NCBI GenBank assembly: GCA_014905635.1
Contig: JABVCE010000013.1
Coordinates: 1,116,001-1,180,000, forward strand
DNA length: 64,000 nt
Source of the DNA: Scenedesmus sp. PABB004
Taxonomy: Eukaryota
Direction: 5' to 3'
Shown here: positions 10,892-17,800 of the stretch, one piece after another
How positions within the stretch are numbered: the first letter of the stretch is position 1
Layout of the letters: each line of letters opens with the position of its first letter
The notes under the pieces: generated by a model
The model's input: only the letters and a program-made list of their open reading frames with translations
The model's database searches: none
What the model was told of the DNA's origin: nothing
Program-made: the position numbers and the translations under genes

Positions 10892-12953
10892 ATGGCGCAC
10901 CACCACCGCGGCGCCGGCGGCGGCCCCGACCCCTACCTGGTGGCCACCACCAAGCTGGGGCACGACTGGAGCGCCAACCGCGCCGTGCCGCACGTCTCGG
11001 GCGCCTGGCTCGAGGCGCTGCTCGCCGACGAGCGCTGGCCGGGCGTGGAGCCGATGCTCAAGCTCCGCCTGCTCCTGGCGGGCCTGGTGGCGGCGGGGCA
11101 GGTCTCCGCGCGCGCCCCGGGGCACGCCGCCACGAGCGCGGTCGCGGCGGCCGAGCTCGTCGAGGCGCTCGGCGCGCTGCAGCGCAGCCTCGCGGGCGAC
11201 GCGGACGAGTGGCTCAAGGTCATGTCTGCCGCGGCCGGCCGCTGCGACGGCCGGCTGGAGCTGGAGCCCGCGATGGAGGCGTCGCCCGCGGTGCGGCGCG
11301 CGGCGGCACGGGCGCAGCGCGCCGGGCGGCGGCGCCGCCGCAGCGACGCCCGCCACCGGCCGCGCGTGCACCCGGCTGACCGCGCACGCGCGCGCGCGCC
11401 CTCGCCGCCGCCGCCGCGCTGCTGCAGATGGCTGAGACGATGGCCGCGCTGCGCCAGGCGGTCGGCGAGTCGGCCAACCAGGCGCTGTTTCCGCCGCTGG
11501 AGGTGCGGCGCGGCGCGCGGCGCGCGCGGTGCCGCCGCGCGGCCCGGTCGTTGAATCCCGCGCGCGCGCGCCCCGCCGCCCGCAGGACGCGTTCCTGCGC
11601 GTGAACCCGCCGCCGCCCGACCCCGGCGCGCCGCACTTTGCGCTGCGGGCCGCGCCGCGCGTGCAGCCGCTGACCAGCAGCGTCAGCTACGCGACCGCCA
11701 CGCCGCCGCCGCCGACGCTGGCCAGCCCGCGGCAGCCGGGTGCGCGCGGCTGCGGCGCGGCGCGGCGCCGCCGCGGCCGCTGCCGCTTGGGGCGCCGCTG
11801 ACGCCCGGGGGGCCCGCCCGTCCGCCCGGCGGCGGCGCGCGCGCAGGGGAGCACCACGGCGCCACCTTTCTGCGACCGACGCCACGGGCCAATGCGCGCG
11901 GCGGGCTGGTGCGTGCGCAGGCGTGCTGCGCGGCGCGGCGCCCGCCCCGCGGGGCAGCGCCCGACCGCGCCCGCCCCGCGCCCGCGCACACACAGGAGCG
12001 CGCCCCGTCTGGCTTGGCGGCGGCGGCGGCGGCCGCGGCGGCGGGCGCCGGCGCCAGCGCCGGCACGCCGGTGCTGGCACGCAGCAAGTCTGGCCTGGCG
12101 CCCAAGGCCCAGAAGATCCAGCTGCTCGGCGCGGAGGAGCAGCGTGAGATGCAGGACGTGCTGAGCAAGAGCCTGCGGGCCAAGGGCCACGGGTGCGCGC
12201 GGCGCGGCGGCGACGGCGGCGACGGCACCGCGGCGCGGGCGCCGCCGCTGCGTGCGGCTTGAGCCACCCCCGTCCTGCCCCGCCCCGCGGCGCCCCGCCG
12301 CAGCGTCGCGGTGAGCGTGCGGCACGAGGCGGTGCCCGGCCACGAGCTGCGCCCGCGCGGCGCGTCCGAGAGCGGCGCCGGCCGCGGCGGCGGCGGCGGC
12401 GGCGGCGAGCGCGCCGGCGGCGCCGGCGACGTGGTGCTGCGGCAGCTGGAGCAGGAGGGCGGCGTGCTGCAGCGCGCGGGCTCGGGCAGCAGCGACGGCG
12501 GCGGCGGCGGCGAGCCGGGGCCGTCCGCGGCGGCAGCAGGCGTGACGGACGCCCAGATTGATGAGCTCTTTGATGACTCTGGCTCGGGCTCAGGCTCAGA
12601 GCCAGAGGATGAAATCATGGACGCGGCGCGCGCGGCGGCGGCGGCGGCGGCGGCGGGCGCGGGCCGGCGGCGCGCGCCGCGCCGCGCGCGCGCTGCGGCA
12701 CGCGGTGCCAGGGGGCGCCGCGCCGCCCGCGGACGGTGCTGCCGCCGCGACGGCGGCGGCGGCGGCGGCGGAGCTTCAGGACGACGGCATGGAGCTGGAC
12801 GCGGAGCTGCAGGACGCGAGCCCGGACGCCGGCGGCGGCGCGCCCGAGGACGGCGACGACGCCGCCGCCGCCGCAGAGCGGGCCGCGGCGCTGGCGGCCA
12901 AGCGCAAGCGGGGGCGGGTGATCATCGATGACGACGACGACGACGACGACTGA
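10892..12953 (+). CDS. NELFA: Negative elongation factor A (NELF-A/WHSC2)-like protein
   Basis: Spliced protein KLGHDWSA..MLKLRLLLAGL..DADEWLKVM..GRLELE..LRQAVGESANQALFPPLEDAFL..HFALRAAP..KIQLL parallels the animal NELF-A N-terminus as I recall it (KLG..W, VKLKLLLG, DSDPWV, LREKVGE..LPLE..YL, HFQLKRKP, VKLL). Acidic tail with a KRKR NLS. Confidence 0.72.
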
Positions 12954-13385: not shown

Positions 13386-14657
13386 TCAGTGTTCAGTGTG
13401 CGCGGCGGCGGCGTCCAGCGCCGCCGCCGAATGCGCGGGCCAGCGCCGCAGCCAGCCGGCGAAGACCAGCCAGCACACGACCAGCGGAACATCCAGCAGG
13501 ATGTGGAGCTTGAGCAGCTGTGCGACCACGAAGCCCCTGGACGAGGGCGCCTTGAAGGCGACCGGCACCTCCGGCGACGCACGCAGCGCGGCGCGGCCCG
13601 GCGCCGATGTGTGGATCCACGCCCACTTTGCCGTGAGCTCCGCGAGCGCCACGACCGCTACCGGCAGGCACACGCCCAGCCATATGGCGGCGACGTCCGC
13701 GACTGCGACGCACTGCCCCAGCACCACGCCGCCACACGGCGCGGCGCCGGCACCGGCGCCAGCTGGGCACGCCGCCGCGATGGCGTCGGCCGTGGGCTGC
13801 CACGTGCCGTCCGGCAGCGCGCTCCCCTGGCCGGTGAGCTTGTCCAGGCCAGCCGCGAGCGCCGACAGCAGCGCCGACGTCTCGTGCGACGTCGCGGGGT
13901 CGGCGAGCGCGGCGGCGCAGAAGCGGCGCGTCCAGGTCAGCACGATCACGATCGAGAACGCCCCCGTGAAGGCGAGGACGTGCAGGGAGGGCAGGCGGTG
14001 CATGAGCGCCATGGTGCACGGCATCAGCACGCCCAGCCTGCGGGCGGGGGCGCGGGCGGGCGAGGCGGGGCGGGGCGGGCCACGTCGGCGCGGCGCAGGC
14101 TCCTGCGCCGCGCGGCGATTCCTGCCGGCCGCCGGACGCGGCGCGGCCTGCCCTCCCCCGTCCCGCACACCCACACACCTGAAGAGCAGCGTCGCGAGGC
14201 GCGCCGGCGCCGACCGCTGCCCGCTGTGGCCGAGCACGGGCAGCGACGCCCACACGACCGCGCTGCAGGCCAGCCAGTGCGCCGCGCACAGCAGGCGGCG
14301 GTGCGCGTCGTATGCGGGCCGCCGCCACACGAGCAGCGCGAGCGTGGCGAGCTGCGCGGCCGCGACGGCGGCGGCCGAGAGGCGCACGGCGCGCACGCGG
14401 CCGGGGTCGCCGGTGTAGGACGGCGTCAGCACGTTGCCCACCAGCAGCGCCGTCTTGCACAGCAGCGCCGCGAGGTCGTGCTGCCGCCAGCGCGCCTCCT
14501 GCTGTGCCCAGAACGGCGCCCACGAGAAGCAGGGCCCGCCGCGCTGCTGCTGCTCGAGCGGCCCATCAGCGGCCCACCGCGCTGGTGCCGCCGCCGCTGC
14601 TGCTCCGCTGCTCTGCTCCAGCGGCCCATCACGCGCCGCGGCGCCCTCGCGGTGCAT
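13386..14657 (-). CDS. Hypothetical multi-pass membrane protein
   Basis: Several hydrophobic segments in ORF 13386-14813, one probable in-frame intron (~14038-14178), and a duplicated DGPLEQ near the N-terminus. The start codon is uncertain. Confidence 0.6.
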   Translation of the reverse strand: MHREGAAARDGPLEQSSGAAAAAAPARWAADGPLEQQQRGGPCFSWAPFWAQQEARWRQHDLAALLCKTALLVGNVLTPSYTGDPGRVRAVRLSAAAVAAAQLATLALLVWRRPAYDAHRRLLCAAHWLACSAVVWASLPVLGHSGQRSAPARLATLLFRCVGVRDGGGQAAPRPAAGRNRRAAQEPAPRRRGPPRPASPARAPARRLGVLMPCTMALMHRLPSLHVLAFTGAFSIVIVLTWTRRFCAAALADPATSHETSALLSALAAGLDKLTGQGSALPDGTWQPTADAIAAACPAGAGAGAAPCGGVVLGQCVAVADVAAIWLGVCLPVAVVALAELTAKWAWIHTSAPGRAALRASPEVPVAFKAPSSRGFVVAQLLKLHILLDVPLVVCWLVFAGWLRRWPAHSAAALDAAAAHTEH

Positions 14658-14823
14658 GAGGGCGCCAGCCTGGCCGGCCGGGAGAGCGGACGAGGAGTGG
14701 TGAGCTGCTGAGGCGCGCGGCGAGACTGGCTGCTGCGTTGCGGCGTTGCTAGTGACGCTGCGCCGCGCGGCCGCACGGTGCCCAGGGTTGCCCGCGCCCG
14801 AGCTCAACGGCACCCCCTCCCCC

Positions 14824-17800
14824 TCAACCGCCCGCCGGGACCGGCGCCGCGGCGGCGCGGTACGGCGCGAGCGGGTCGGCCACGGGCCGCACGTCGCCCA
14901 GCGCCGCCTCGGCGCCGCACATCGGGCAGCGCCCCTCCGCCGCCAGGATCGCCGCGAGGCCCGCCCCGCTCGCCGGCATGCGGCACGCCGGGCACTCGCA
15001 CCAGTCCGCGAGCGTCATGCGCTTGCCTGCCTCGCCGCGCGGCGCGCGCGCGCGGGTCACTGGTGGCCGGCGCGCTGCGCGCTGGCTGCGCGGCAGCGGC
15101 AGCGCTGCGGTGACGCGCCGCGGCGGCCGCACCCGTGGCGATGTCGAACGGCAGCTCGCTCTGGCAGCCGACGCACTGCAGCTCCGTGTCGGGGCCGGGC
15201 AGCGCGCAGAAGGGGCAGGGCGCGAGGCCCGGCGGCGGCTCGTCGCCGCGGTCGGGCTTGCGCACCATGAGCTCAATCTTCTTGCGGTGCCGCTCAGAAA
15301 CGGCGGGCCTGGGCACGGCCGGCGCGGGCGCGCACGTGGCGCGCACGTGCTGGCGGGCGCAGGTGCCGCTTGCTGGCGCCGCCGGGCCCGGCCCGGCAGG
15401 GCCCCCCGCGCGCCGCAGCAGCGGGCGCGCCTGTACTCGGGCCGCATCAGCGTGCTCGCGTGCTCAAACGCCGTGCGCCGCAGCCCCGCGCGCGCGCACT
15501 CGATGACGGTGGAGGTGAGGATCGGCACGACGTGCTTGGGGAACCTGCGGCCCCGGCACGGCGCCGTCGTCGCAGCCGCTGGCTGCAGCAGTGCGGCGGC
15601 GCCGGCCCGAGCCGGCGCGGGCGCGCGCGCGCGCCGCCCGTGCGCCCCACCCCCGCGCGCACGCCTGCTGATGCTGCCCGCGACGCGCACGAGCATGCGC
15701 GCCGCGCCGGCGTGGTCGCCGAGGCTGACGAGGCTGCGCACGAGCACGTAGCTGTGCAGCAGCGCGAGGCGGCGCTCCAGCTCGCGCTGCGGCGGCGCGC
15801 CGAGGCCGCGCAGCTGCTGCAGCGTGGCAAAGAGCTTGGCGTGAGCGAGCTTGTAGTTTCCCTCCTCCTGGCGGCGCGCAGGTGGCGAGCGGGCGGGCGG
15901 GCGGGCGTGTGAAGCGGCGCCTCAGCCGGCCCGCCGGCGGGTGCGCGCCCAGTGGCCGCCGCCGAGCGCGGGGCGCGCCTGCTCGCAGCGCGCCAGCTCG
16001 AGCGCGGCCGCCGCCGCGTCGCCGAGCTGCCCGGCCGCCATGTGGAGCCGCAGGCGCAGCGCGTCGCGCGCGGCCGGCGCCAGCCCTGCCGCGCCCTCCA
16101 GCGCGTCGAGTATGGCCGGCGCGAGCCCGGCACGGCGCGACTCCTCCACGAGCGCGACGGCCTTGGCCAACGCGGCCTGCGTGCACACCTGGCGGCACGG
16201 CACGGCGCGGCAAGCGAGCGGCTGGGCCGCTGGGCGGCCACGGCCCGCGGCCGCCCCGACCGTCGCCGCTGCCGCCGCCCGCACCTGCAGGTACAGGCCC
16301 ACCGCGCGTTCGGGCTCGCCGCCGCGGGCCCACATGTCGGCCGCCTGCTCCAGCTCCCCCCTTGCTGCATAGTACTGCGCGACGCGCTGCGCCTCCTCGG
16401 GCGCCTGCGCGGCGGCGCGGTGGGGCTCGGCGGCGGCAGGCGCGCGCCCCGCAGCAGGCTGCCTCACGGCGCTGGATCGCCGCCGCCGCCGCGCGCTGTG
16501 CCGCCGCACCCGCGCGCCATCGGCCACCAGGCGAGCAAAGGCATCCATGGCGCCCTTGGCCGCCGCCACGTCAAACGCCTGGTCCAGCTGGCCCGCGAGC
16601 AGCAGGAACTCGACCGCCAGCGCCGCGTCGCCGGCGGAGAGGCAGTGCCGCGCGACCGCCGCGGCGGCGCCCGTGCTGCGGGTGCGGCGCGCGAGCGCGC
16701 ACGCGCGCGGCGCGTCGCCCAGCCGGTCGAGGCAGAGCTGCACCACCGCGTCGACGTCGCCTGCGCCGCGTGGCGGCCGTGCAGGGGGTGGGCTGCGGGG
16801 CGGCGGGGCGGCCGAGCCGAGCGGCGGGCCCCGGCGCTGCCCCCGCCCGCCGCACCCGCGGCCTCGTACGCGGCCGCCGCGTCGGCCCAGCGCCCCTCCG
16901 CCTCCTTGGCCTTGGCGAACTGCAGCTGCAGCGCGGCGCTCGCGACGCGGGCCATGAGCGGCGCCGCGGCTGCAAAGTTCTTGGCCGCGATGTGGATGCT
17001 CGCCGCCTTCTCCACCTGCCCCGCGCGCTCGTACATCTCAGCCGCCTCGGGCAGCTGCCGCAGGGCCTCCAGGATGGCCCCGCACTCGCGCCACAGGCCG
17101 GGGCTGTCCGCCTGCGCCGTGAGCGCGCGCCCCGCGCGCAGGTCGCCAAGCTGCAGCGTCGTGCGCGCCACGCCCGCGAGGCAGGCCGCCGCGAGCCCGG
17201 GGTCGGCGCCGCTGGCGGACAGCAGGTCCAGCGCCTGCGCGCGGGCGTCACGGGGCGCCGTCGGCGGCGCTGCCGCCGCGCGCGCCGCCGCGCGCGCCCG
17301 CGCGGCGCCGCCTCCCCCGCGCTACCGCACCTGCTGGTAGTGCGTGCGCGCCTCGGCGTGCTCGCCCAGCATCTCCTGCGTCGCCGCGTGCTCCTTGAAC
17401 AGCTCCGGCACGCTGCTCGGTGCGAGCTCCTGCGCGAGCGCGAGCGCCTGCGGCCAGTGCTTGAGGTCGCGCCGCATCTCCAGCGCCGCCATCGGCCGGC
17501 TGCTGCGCAGCAGCAGCTCCTGCGGCACAGCGCGGCGCGAGCAGGGGCTCGGCGTGCGCGCCGCGGCGGCGCGCGGCGCGTGGCTCGCCGCGCAGCTGGC
17601 TCTACGCGCGCACGCACCTGGGCCTGGTTGTAGTCTCGCTCCAGCAGCACCAGCAGGCTGCCGGCCAGCAGGTTGCGGTCCTCCACGCCCGCCAGCGGCT
17701 CCAGGCTGAGCACCATCGCGGCGTCACCGACCTGGCGGCGGCGGCGCGCGCAGGGGGTTGGGCGCGGCCCCTGTTCCCCTCCCCCTCTCCACACGTCTGT

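What the first reader, a model, noticed from the sequence alone, without database searches (positions are those of the whole stretch)
10892..12953. NELF-A-like gene in a green alga
Seen: colinear motif matches across ~170 aa to the NELF-A N-terminal (NELF-C-binding) region, including PLE..L, HF.L and a later K..LL segment, compared from memory. The animal C-terminal domain appears replaced by an acidic tail. Known: NELF stabilises Pol II promoter-proximal pausing and is considered absent from Arabidopsis and budding yeast, though subunits occur in some unicellular eukaryotes. Inference: this alga may retain a NELF pausing complex.
Basis: partly seen in the sequence, partly recalled or inferred. 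Interest (0 to 1): 0.72.

Follow-up and report, generated by a model that had tools for sequence, protein, structure and literature searches.

The report
Green algal NELF-A pausing-factor gene
This gene is a true green-algal version of NELF-A, part of the complex that holds RNA polymerase II near gene starts in animals; such algal genes were already known, but many algal copies also seem to keep a short polymerase-gripping motif, which is worn down in this one.

Summary
Confirmed. Window 10892-12953 is a spliced gene of Scenedesmus sp. PABB004 (HT031_004364) encoding a NELF-A orthologue; no second copy was found. Direct Pfam and PDB searches miss it. A profile of 40 algal relatives matches human NELF-A at E 1.2e-32, and the predicted fold's top five matches are all NELF-A (Z up to 11.9). 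Both invariant NELF-C-binding tryptophans are kept. The genome also encodes NELF-C/D (clear) and NELF-B (weaker, colinear exon hits). NELF-E was not tested. The animal C-terminal domain is not detected.

The headline is not new: Vos et al. 2016 reported NELF-A and NELF-C in Chlorella variabilis.

One point may be new. A short motif about 60-170 residues after the core is conserved in many green algae (22 of 32 rows) and aligns with human tentacle residues 250-263. This questions the view that NELF-A's polymerase-binding part is confined to animals and their relatives. The window's own copy is degenerate (p 0.45), and a motif-only PDB search found nothing. A predicted RPB2 complex gave weak support (0.52, best control 0.00). 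Pausing itself is untested.

The parts
10892..11290 (+). Exon 1 (residues 1-133): NELF-A helical N-terminal domain, with W26 and W107 (human W24, W89)
11291..11427 (+). Intron 1, GT-AG, 137 nt
   Evidence: model reproduces P0001
11428..11502 (+). Exon 2 (residues 134-158): extended region up to PPLE
11503..11585 (+). Intron 2, GT-AG, 83 nt
11586..11739 (+). Exon 3: end of extended region (HFALR, 11634-11648) and an RVQPL...TPPPP segment shared with P0002-P0004
11740..11846 (+). Intron 3, GT-AG, 107 nt
11847..11908 (+). Exon 4: disordered tentacle
11909..11995 (+). Intron 4, GT-AG, 87 nt
11996..12192 (+). Exon 5: tentacle, holding the motif and a predicted helix (residues 276-292)
12113..12139 (+). 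Degenerate tentacle motif KIQLLGAEE (residues 270-278); same alignment columns as the algal basic-hydrophobic-LD motif that aligns to human residues 250-263; the Asp found in 27 of 40 rows is Gly here
12193..12303 (+). Intron 5, GT-AG, 111 nt
12304..12656 (+). Exon 6 (preferred model): Gly-rich and acidic tail with a short QIDELFDDS motif; NCBI instead removes 12542-12593 as an intron
12657..12711 (+). Proposed intron 6, GC-AG, 55 nt, 93% G+C; inferred, one of 24 in-frame options that keep the acidic motif
12712..12953 (+). Last exon: acidic tail ending in a basic cluster then VII and poly-Asp, like the Tetradesmus and Raphidocelis relatives

Best explanation
The gene encodes the NELF-A subunit of an algal NELF made of at least A, B and C/D. 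Shown: orthology, fold, kept interface tryptophans, partner genes in the genome. Inferred from the human structure: residues ~11-180 wrap NELF-C, with W26 and W107 in its hydrophobic pockets; NELF-C joins NELF-B; the complex docks on early-elongating RNA polymerase II with DSIF and slows it near promoters. Inferred, weaker (about 50%): residues 267-292 of the disordered tentacle bind RPB2 as a second anchor. The animal C-terminal domain that binds Integrator INTS12 is not detected, so that link is probably missing. I expect a broad, modest slow-down rather than the sharp animal pause. Confidence by step: orthologue 0.97; A-B-C complex on polymerase II 0.8; measurable promoter-proximal pausing about 0.5.
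For: Profile hits to human NELF-A at E 1.6e-6 and 1.2e-32 over residues 4-294. 48 of 101 relatives scanned hit Pfam NELF-A_N at E<=0.001, 32 above its cut-off. AlphaFold2 residues 11-140 have block pLDDT 87-98. The top five Foldseek and VIA-align rows are NELF-A chains: Z 11.9, rmsd 2.3 A, 121 residues; next unrelated Z 8.0. W26 is in 35 of 40 rows (5 gaps), W107 in 39 of 40; human W24/W89 are the invariant NELF-C contacts. NELF-C/D: TH1 hit at E 2.8e-20; 4 of 5 exons scanned hit TH1, from model position 33 to 575 of 579. NELF-B: 2 of 7 exons hit only COBRA1, in order, 16.9 and 17.5 bits; exon 1's best PDB hits are NELF-B, E 0.03. One copy found. The tree groups known relatives together. Complex with RPB2: weak support, 0.52 against best control 0.00 (caveats in the Full report section).
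Against: The protein itself does not hit Pfam NELF-A_N or any NELF-A chain alone. Foldseek E is only 0.017, and Z under about 13 can be generic for helical bundles. Each NELF-B exon is under the family cut-off of 22 bits, 5 of 7 exons hit nothing, and the first family search found no match at E<=0.001. The window's tentacle motif is not significant against shuffles (p 0.38 and 0.45). No expression, binding or run-on data were obtained. Chivu et al. state that the Pol II-binding HDAg-like domain was found only in animals and Capsaspora.
Confidence: 0.78

Rival explanations
1. A true NELF-A in an A-B-C core that does not cause pausing. With a worn tentacle motif, no animal C-terminal domain and perhaps no NELF-E, it serves as a polymerase-bound scaffold for capping, early termination or promoter chromatin.
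For: Motif degenerate here and in most Sphaeropleales rows (1 of 5 at p<=0.05) and gapped in Pleodorina. No match to the human C-terminal part. Most regions outside the core diverge in unicellular NELF-A (PMC4940160).
Against: Chivu et al. report that species with NELF-B and -C/D have higher pausing indexes than those without. The motif site is still the best-scoring site of the window's tail.
Confidence: 0.17
2. Not NELF-A: a generic helical domain (CID-like or similar) that resembles it by chance.
For: No direct Pfam or PDB hit. The first unrelated fold match is a CTD-interacting domain, Z 8.0. The atlas recognition score is low.
Against: Profile E 1.2e-32 with colinear motifs; 48 of 101 relatives in NELF-A_N; partner genes present.
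Confidence: 0.02
3. A decaying or unexpressed remnant.
For: The last splice is unresolved and the window's branch is longer than its sisters' (0.69 against 0.19-0.45).
Against: Open frame, 99% G+C at third positions in exon 1, invariant residues kept, 42-47% identity to close relatives, and short C-terminal motifs shared with Tetradesmus.
Confidence: 0.03

Closest known systems
Human NELF-A (WHSC2; PDB 5L3X_A, 6GML_U, 8UHA_U, 8UHD_U; Pfam PF23553 NELF-A_N)
   Same: N-terminal helical domain and extended region (Z 11.9, rmsd 2.3 A, 26% identity over 121 residues), both interface tryptophans, PLE and HF-x-L motifs, disordered tentacle with a motif at a similar distance.
   Different: Below the Pfam model as a single sequence. 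An Ala-rich stretch lengthens the N-terminal domain. The tentacle motif lacks the Asp. No detectable C-terminal domain (human 431-528, which binds INTS12 according to bioRxiv 10.64898/2026.06.30.735463); an acidic tail instead.
Chlorella variabilis NELF-A and NELF-C (Vos et al. 2016, PMC4940160)
   Same: NELF-A and NELF-C homologues in a green alga, conserved core, divergent remainder.
   Different: Another order of green algae. Here NELF-B is also located. I saw no mention of a tentacle motif in the passages read; the supplementary alignments were not seen.
Uncharacterised green algal relatives: Tetradesmus obliquus (P0003 cluster), Raphidocelis GBF96764.1, Dunaliella and Cymbomonas entries that UniRef names 'NELF-A N-terminal domain-containing protein'
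   Same: Same family; Tetradesmus shares the core, the mid-protein motif region and two short tail motifs.
   Different: Tetradesmus keeps the Asp of the motif; Trebouxiophyceae, Tetraselmis, Cymbomonas, Mesostigma and Chlorokybus keep a much more canonical motif.

Membership tests
NELF-A | Sequence homology to the NELF-C-binding region (human 6-182) | tested here: met
   Profile E 1.6e-6; 3e-27 to 5L3X_A and 1.2e-32 to 6GML_U
NELF-A | Direct match of this protein to Pfam PF23553 above 27 bits | tested here: not met
   No hit; but 32 of 101 relatives pass the cut-off, so this reflects divergence from the model
NELF-A | N-terminal helical fold | tested here: met
   Top five rows NELF-A in Foldseek (E 0.017-0.15, prob 1.00) and VIA-align (Z 10.1-11.9)
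NELF-A | Invariant W24 and W89 that insert into NELF-C | tested here: met
   W26 and W107
NELF-A | Tentacle element that binds polymerase II | tested here: inconclusive
   Family motif aligns to human 250-263, human motif reached by about 1% of random sequences; window copy p 0.45; motif-only PDB search empty; complex weak support
NELF-A (animal type) | Folded C-terminal domain (human 431-528) | tested here: not met
   No positive profile score beyond human residue 294; no compact fold after residue ~160 in the model
NELF complex | NELF-C/D gene in the genome | tested here: met
   G000:C77, TH1 E 2.8e-20
NELF complex | NELF-B gene in the genome | tested here: met
   G000:C1 near 3843829; three exons point independently to NELF-B in order, each weak
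NELF complex | NELF-E gene in the genome | not tested
   No search was run; I had no NELF-E-specific query, and an RRM search would not discriminate
NELF complex | Physical A-C-B assembly and DSIF-dependent pausing | not testable with these tools
   Needs co-purification and run-on sequencing

The most novel reading that the evidence does not exclude
The polymerase-gripping part of the NELF-A tentacle is not an invention of animals and their relatives. It is kept as a short motif from Mesostigma and Chlorokybus to Trebouxiophyceae and, in worn form, in this alga. Green algae would then have a three-subunit NELF that pauses polymerase II without the animal C-terminal domain, lost on the way to land plants and eroding in some Chlorophyceae.
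Probability: 0.35. Interest if true: 0.65.

Novelty: new member of a known kind. Interest (0 to 1): 0.36.

Why it matters
As a gene identification it is ordinary: NELF-A and NELF-C in a green alga were reported in 2016. Its value is as a test system. Green algae hold NELF-A, -B and -C/D while land plants reportedly lost the core, so algal knockouts with run-on sequencing could show what NELF did before animals. If the tentacle motif is ancient, the model in which NELF-A gained its polymerase-binding part near the origin of animals would need revising.

Tried and rejected
Single-sequence searches missed NELF-A: Pfam on 6 exon stretches, on P0001-P0004, PDB, PF23553 against the genome. A profile of the tentacle motif alone (29 rows, 34 positions) found 0 PDB sequences at E<=10, so the motif is supported only in context. 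COBRA1 at E<=0.001 found nothing; the gene appeared only at a looser threshold. The atlas gave no usable hit for NELF-B exon 1, and a later NELF-B exon found nothing in PDB. HEXIM search: no match, and no control rang, so uninformative. No RNA holder was listed, so no reads were laid. Su and Vos 2024 is not held. NCBI's last intron (12542-12593) was judged unlikely: 58% G+C against 87-92% for introns 1-5, and it gives an Arg-rich frame; against my choice, third-position G+C is lower in the acidic frame (0.74 against 0.92) and the pairwise match of the acidic motif is weak (E 0.59). Earlier scan findings: none by sequence or by the full word set; the 8 shown of 16 for 'NELF' concern other subunits or organisms and were not used. 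The upstream gene got no Pfam hit. The supplements of PMC7896298 hold none of six NELF or MOZART terms.

Full report
Gene. The window is G000:C6:1116001-1180000, 75-83% G+C. The finding runs from ATG 10892 to TGA 12951-12953. Exons 10892-11290, 11428-11502, 11586-11739, 11847-11908, 11996-12192 and one from 12304 are joined by five GT-AG introns of 83-137 nt in an open frame. Exon 1 is 100% identical to NCBI protein HT031_004364 of Scenedesmus sp. PABB004 (P0001, 494 aa). One more intron is needed. NCBI's is 12542-12593, which is 58% G+C against 87-92% for the other five and yields an Arg-rich frame. I prefer a GC-AG intron at 12657-12711 (93% G+C; 493 aa). It keeps a QIDELFDDS motif resembling one in Tetradesmus, and GC donors occur in the NELF-B and NELF-C genes of this genome. 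This is unproven: 24 in-frame options keep the motif, third-position G+C favours NCBI's frame, and the pairwise match is weak (E 0.59). A search of the genome with exon 1 found only the gene itself.

Identity. Single-sequence searches fail. The atlas placed exon 1 nearest clusters carrying PF23553 NELF-A_N (0.91; family on 38% of members; low recognition score, so a lead only). A profile of the N-terminal ~190 residues of four close relatives hit human NELF-A 5L3X_A at E 1.6e-6, next hit 0.37. The same profile found 103 proteins among 1.84 billion. Of 101 scanned (P0001 and one 5817-residue protein left out), 48 hit NELF-A_N at E<=0.001 and 32 passed the cut-off, best 46.2 bits. I aligned P0001-P0004 with 36 of the 48 hits of 200-999 residues, dropping 12 that looked by eye like intron read-through or truncated calls (A4). 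This profile matched 6GML_U at E 1.2e-32 over residues 4-294; the best unrelated hit was 7.3e-6, to a low-complexity stretch. AlphaFold2 on A4 gave block pLDDT 87-98 for residues 11-140 and little order after ~160. Foldseek ranked five NELF-A chains first (E 0.017-0.15, none under 0.001). VIA-align gave Z 11.9, rmsd 2.3 A over 121 residues, next unrelated Z 8.0; the tool warns that such Z values can be generic for helical bundles, so the sequence evidence carries the weight. Human W24 and W89, the invariant NELF-C contacts (PMC4940160 section 6), align with W26 and W107.

Partners. NELF-C/D lies on C77 (TH1, E 2.8e-20); 4 of 5 exons scanned hit TH1 from model position 33 to 575. NELF-B lies on C1: missed at E<=0.001, found as two colinear weak matches 1.1 kb apart. 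Two of 7 exons hit only COBRA1 (16.9 and 17.5 bits, cut-off 22) and exon 1's top five PDB hits are NELF-B (E 0.03). NELF-E was not searched. The HEXIM search was uninformative.

Spread. Of 30 clusters looked up, 16 name an organism and all 16 are green algae: Tetradesmus, Raphidocelis, Pleodorina, Chlamydomonas eustigma, Dunaliella, Micractinium, Coccomyxa, Trebouxia, Symbiochloris, Myrmecia, Stichococcus, two Tetraselmis, Cymbomonas, Chlorokybus, Mesostigma. None is a land plant, but no animal protein was recognised among the hits either, so this does not show absence. The tree groups the window with Tetradesmus and Raphidocelis (99/93), the three Chlamydomonadales together (99/99) and Chlorokybus with Mesostigma (96/83) (order names recalled). 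This fits vertical descent.

Tentacle motif. That stretch includes K255, listed among residues whose cross-links placed the tentacle on polymerase II, along a path that includes the RPB2 protrusion (bioRxiv 2021.04.25.441328, passages). The tentacle is called necessary for pausing (PMC11139899, passages). That this very segment binds the protrusion in the 2024 structures is my recall of Su and Vos 2024, which is not held. Tests: 32 of 40 rows are gap-free there. Leaving out one row, 26 of 32 score p<=0.05 against 200 shuffles of their own tail. Leaving out whole clades with equal clade weights, 22 of 32 do against 1000 shuffles (the 13-row 'Chlorellales' clade is named from one member). The human motif scored 10.7 bits, reached by 64 and 52 of 5000 random 360-mers. 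Against: a motif-only profile found nothing in PDB; the window's copy has Gly for the Asp and is not significant (p 0.38, 0.45), though it is the best site in its tail; Pleodorina is gapped there and C. eustigma scores nothing.

Complex prediction. Residues 255-300 of P0001 were folded with residues 15-700 of Tetradesmus RPB2 (P0122; 88% identical to the first exon of this genome's RPB2). Verdict: weak support, score 0.52, best of 3 controls 0.00, partner pLDDT 54, runs agreeing in at least 60% of contacts. The mark was reached by 51 of 78 solved and 2 of 108 mismatched pairs, but at 0.60 or under by only 5 of the 78 solved and by all 4 mismatches that passed (of 180). On eukaryotes it was reached by 39 of 65 solved and 2 of 126 unrelated pairs; peptides and disordered chains are untested. 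My alignments were not used, no interface was given, RPB2 is a stand-in, and a like complex has been solved, so the pass may be from memory. It moves my odds only a little.

Tail. Nothing beyond human residue 294 scored positively. The human C-terminal domain (431-528) binds the INTS12 PHD finger (bioRxiv 10.64898/2026.06.30.735463, abstract and passages), so that link is probably absent here. Whether algae lost it or animals gained it was not tested. The fold was made from NCBI's model, which differs from mine after residue ~375.

What is known. Vos et al. 2016 state that NELF-A and -C homologues occur in Chlorella variabilis and Dictyostelium and that most regions outside the core diverge (PMC4940160, passages and section 6; figure supplements not seen). 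Chivu et al. report NELF-B and -C/D as widespread and lost in land plants, NELF-A homologues in some unicellular eukaryotes, the HDAg-like domain only in animals and Capsaspora, and NELF-E only in animals (bioRxiv 2023.02.19.529146, passages). Their Table S1 and Figure S6 were not seen and may already show algal sequences or this motif. Searches listed no paper whose title or abstract start concerns an algal tentacle motif or NELF function in algae; most subscription journals are not in the library. Other papers seen as passages: PMC13232147, PMC13443923, PMC10482750; PMC7896298 as listing and supplement search.

Verdict. A real NELF-A orthologue in a genome with NELF-B and NELF-C/D: a new member of a known kind. 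The identification is secure; pausing is inferred. The one lead beyond print is the family-wide tentacle motif, moderately supported for green algae and weakly for this gene. Interest 0.36; novel case probability 0.35, interest 0.65 if true.

Noticed in passing
L004:595-807 (G000:C1, just upstream of NELF-B): A MOZART1 ORF (Pfam PF12554, E 8.9e-22) ends 93 nt before the NELF-B ATG on the same strand: a possible bicistronic locus. Not found by name in the supplements of PMC7896298.
   Followed up: partly
L004:1366-1506, 1618-1755; L003:6560-6461 (minus): NELF-B and NELF-C genes appear to use GC-AG introns with CAG|GCGCG donors; GC donors may be common in this genome and mislead annotation.
   Followed up: partly
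window 12542-12711: NCBI model HT031_004364 probably has the wrong last intron, giving a poly-Arg frame in place of an acidic stretch.
   Followed up: partly
window 12551-12580 and 12900-12950: Two short tail motifs (Q-x-x-x-L-F-x-D/E-acidic; basic cluster then V-I and poly-Asp) recur in Tetradesmus P0003 and Raphidocelis P0015. By recall the first resembles TFIIS-N-terminal-domain-interacting motifs of elongation factors; untested.
   Followed up: no
window 10608 downward, minus strand: A gene starts head-to-head with NELF-A, 283 nt between start codons. It looks NAF1-like by recall; Pfam gave no hit.
   Followed up: partly
window 11658-11714: An RVQPL...Y...TPPPP segment just after the core is nearly invariant in P0001-P0004 but has no counterpart in more distant algae; possible lineage-specific binding or phosphorylation site.
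   Followed up: no
L003:7551-9314 (minus): A farnesyl-diphosphate-synthase-like gene (recalled from the translation) lies directly upstream of NELF-C/D on the same strand.
   Followed up: no
window 13386-15014, minus strand: A convergent gene with hydrophobic stretches follows NELF-A; no Pfam hit for the part scanned.
   Followed up: partly
P0096, P0090, P0032: Pleodorina, an unnamed relative in its clade and C. eustigma show no canonical tentacle motif, suggesting loss within Chlamydomonadales.
   Followed up: partly
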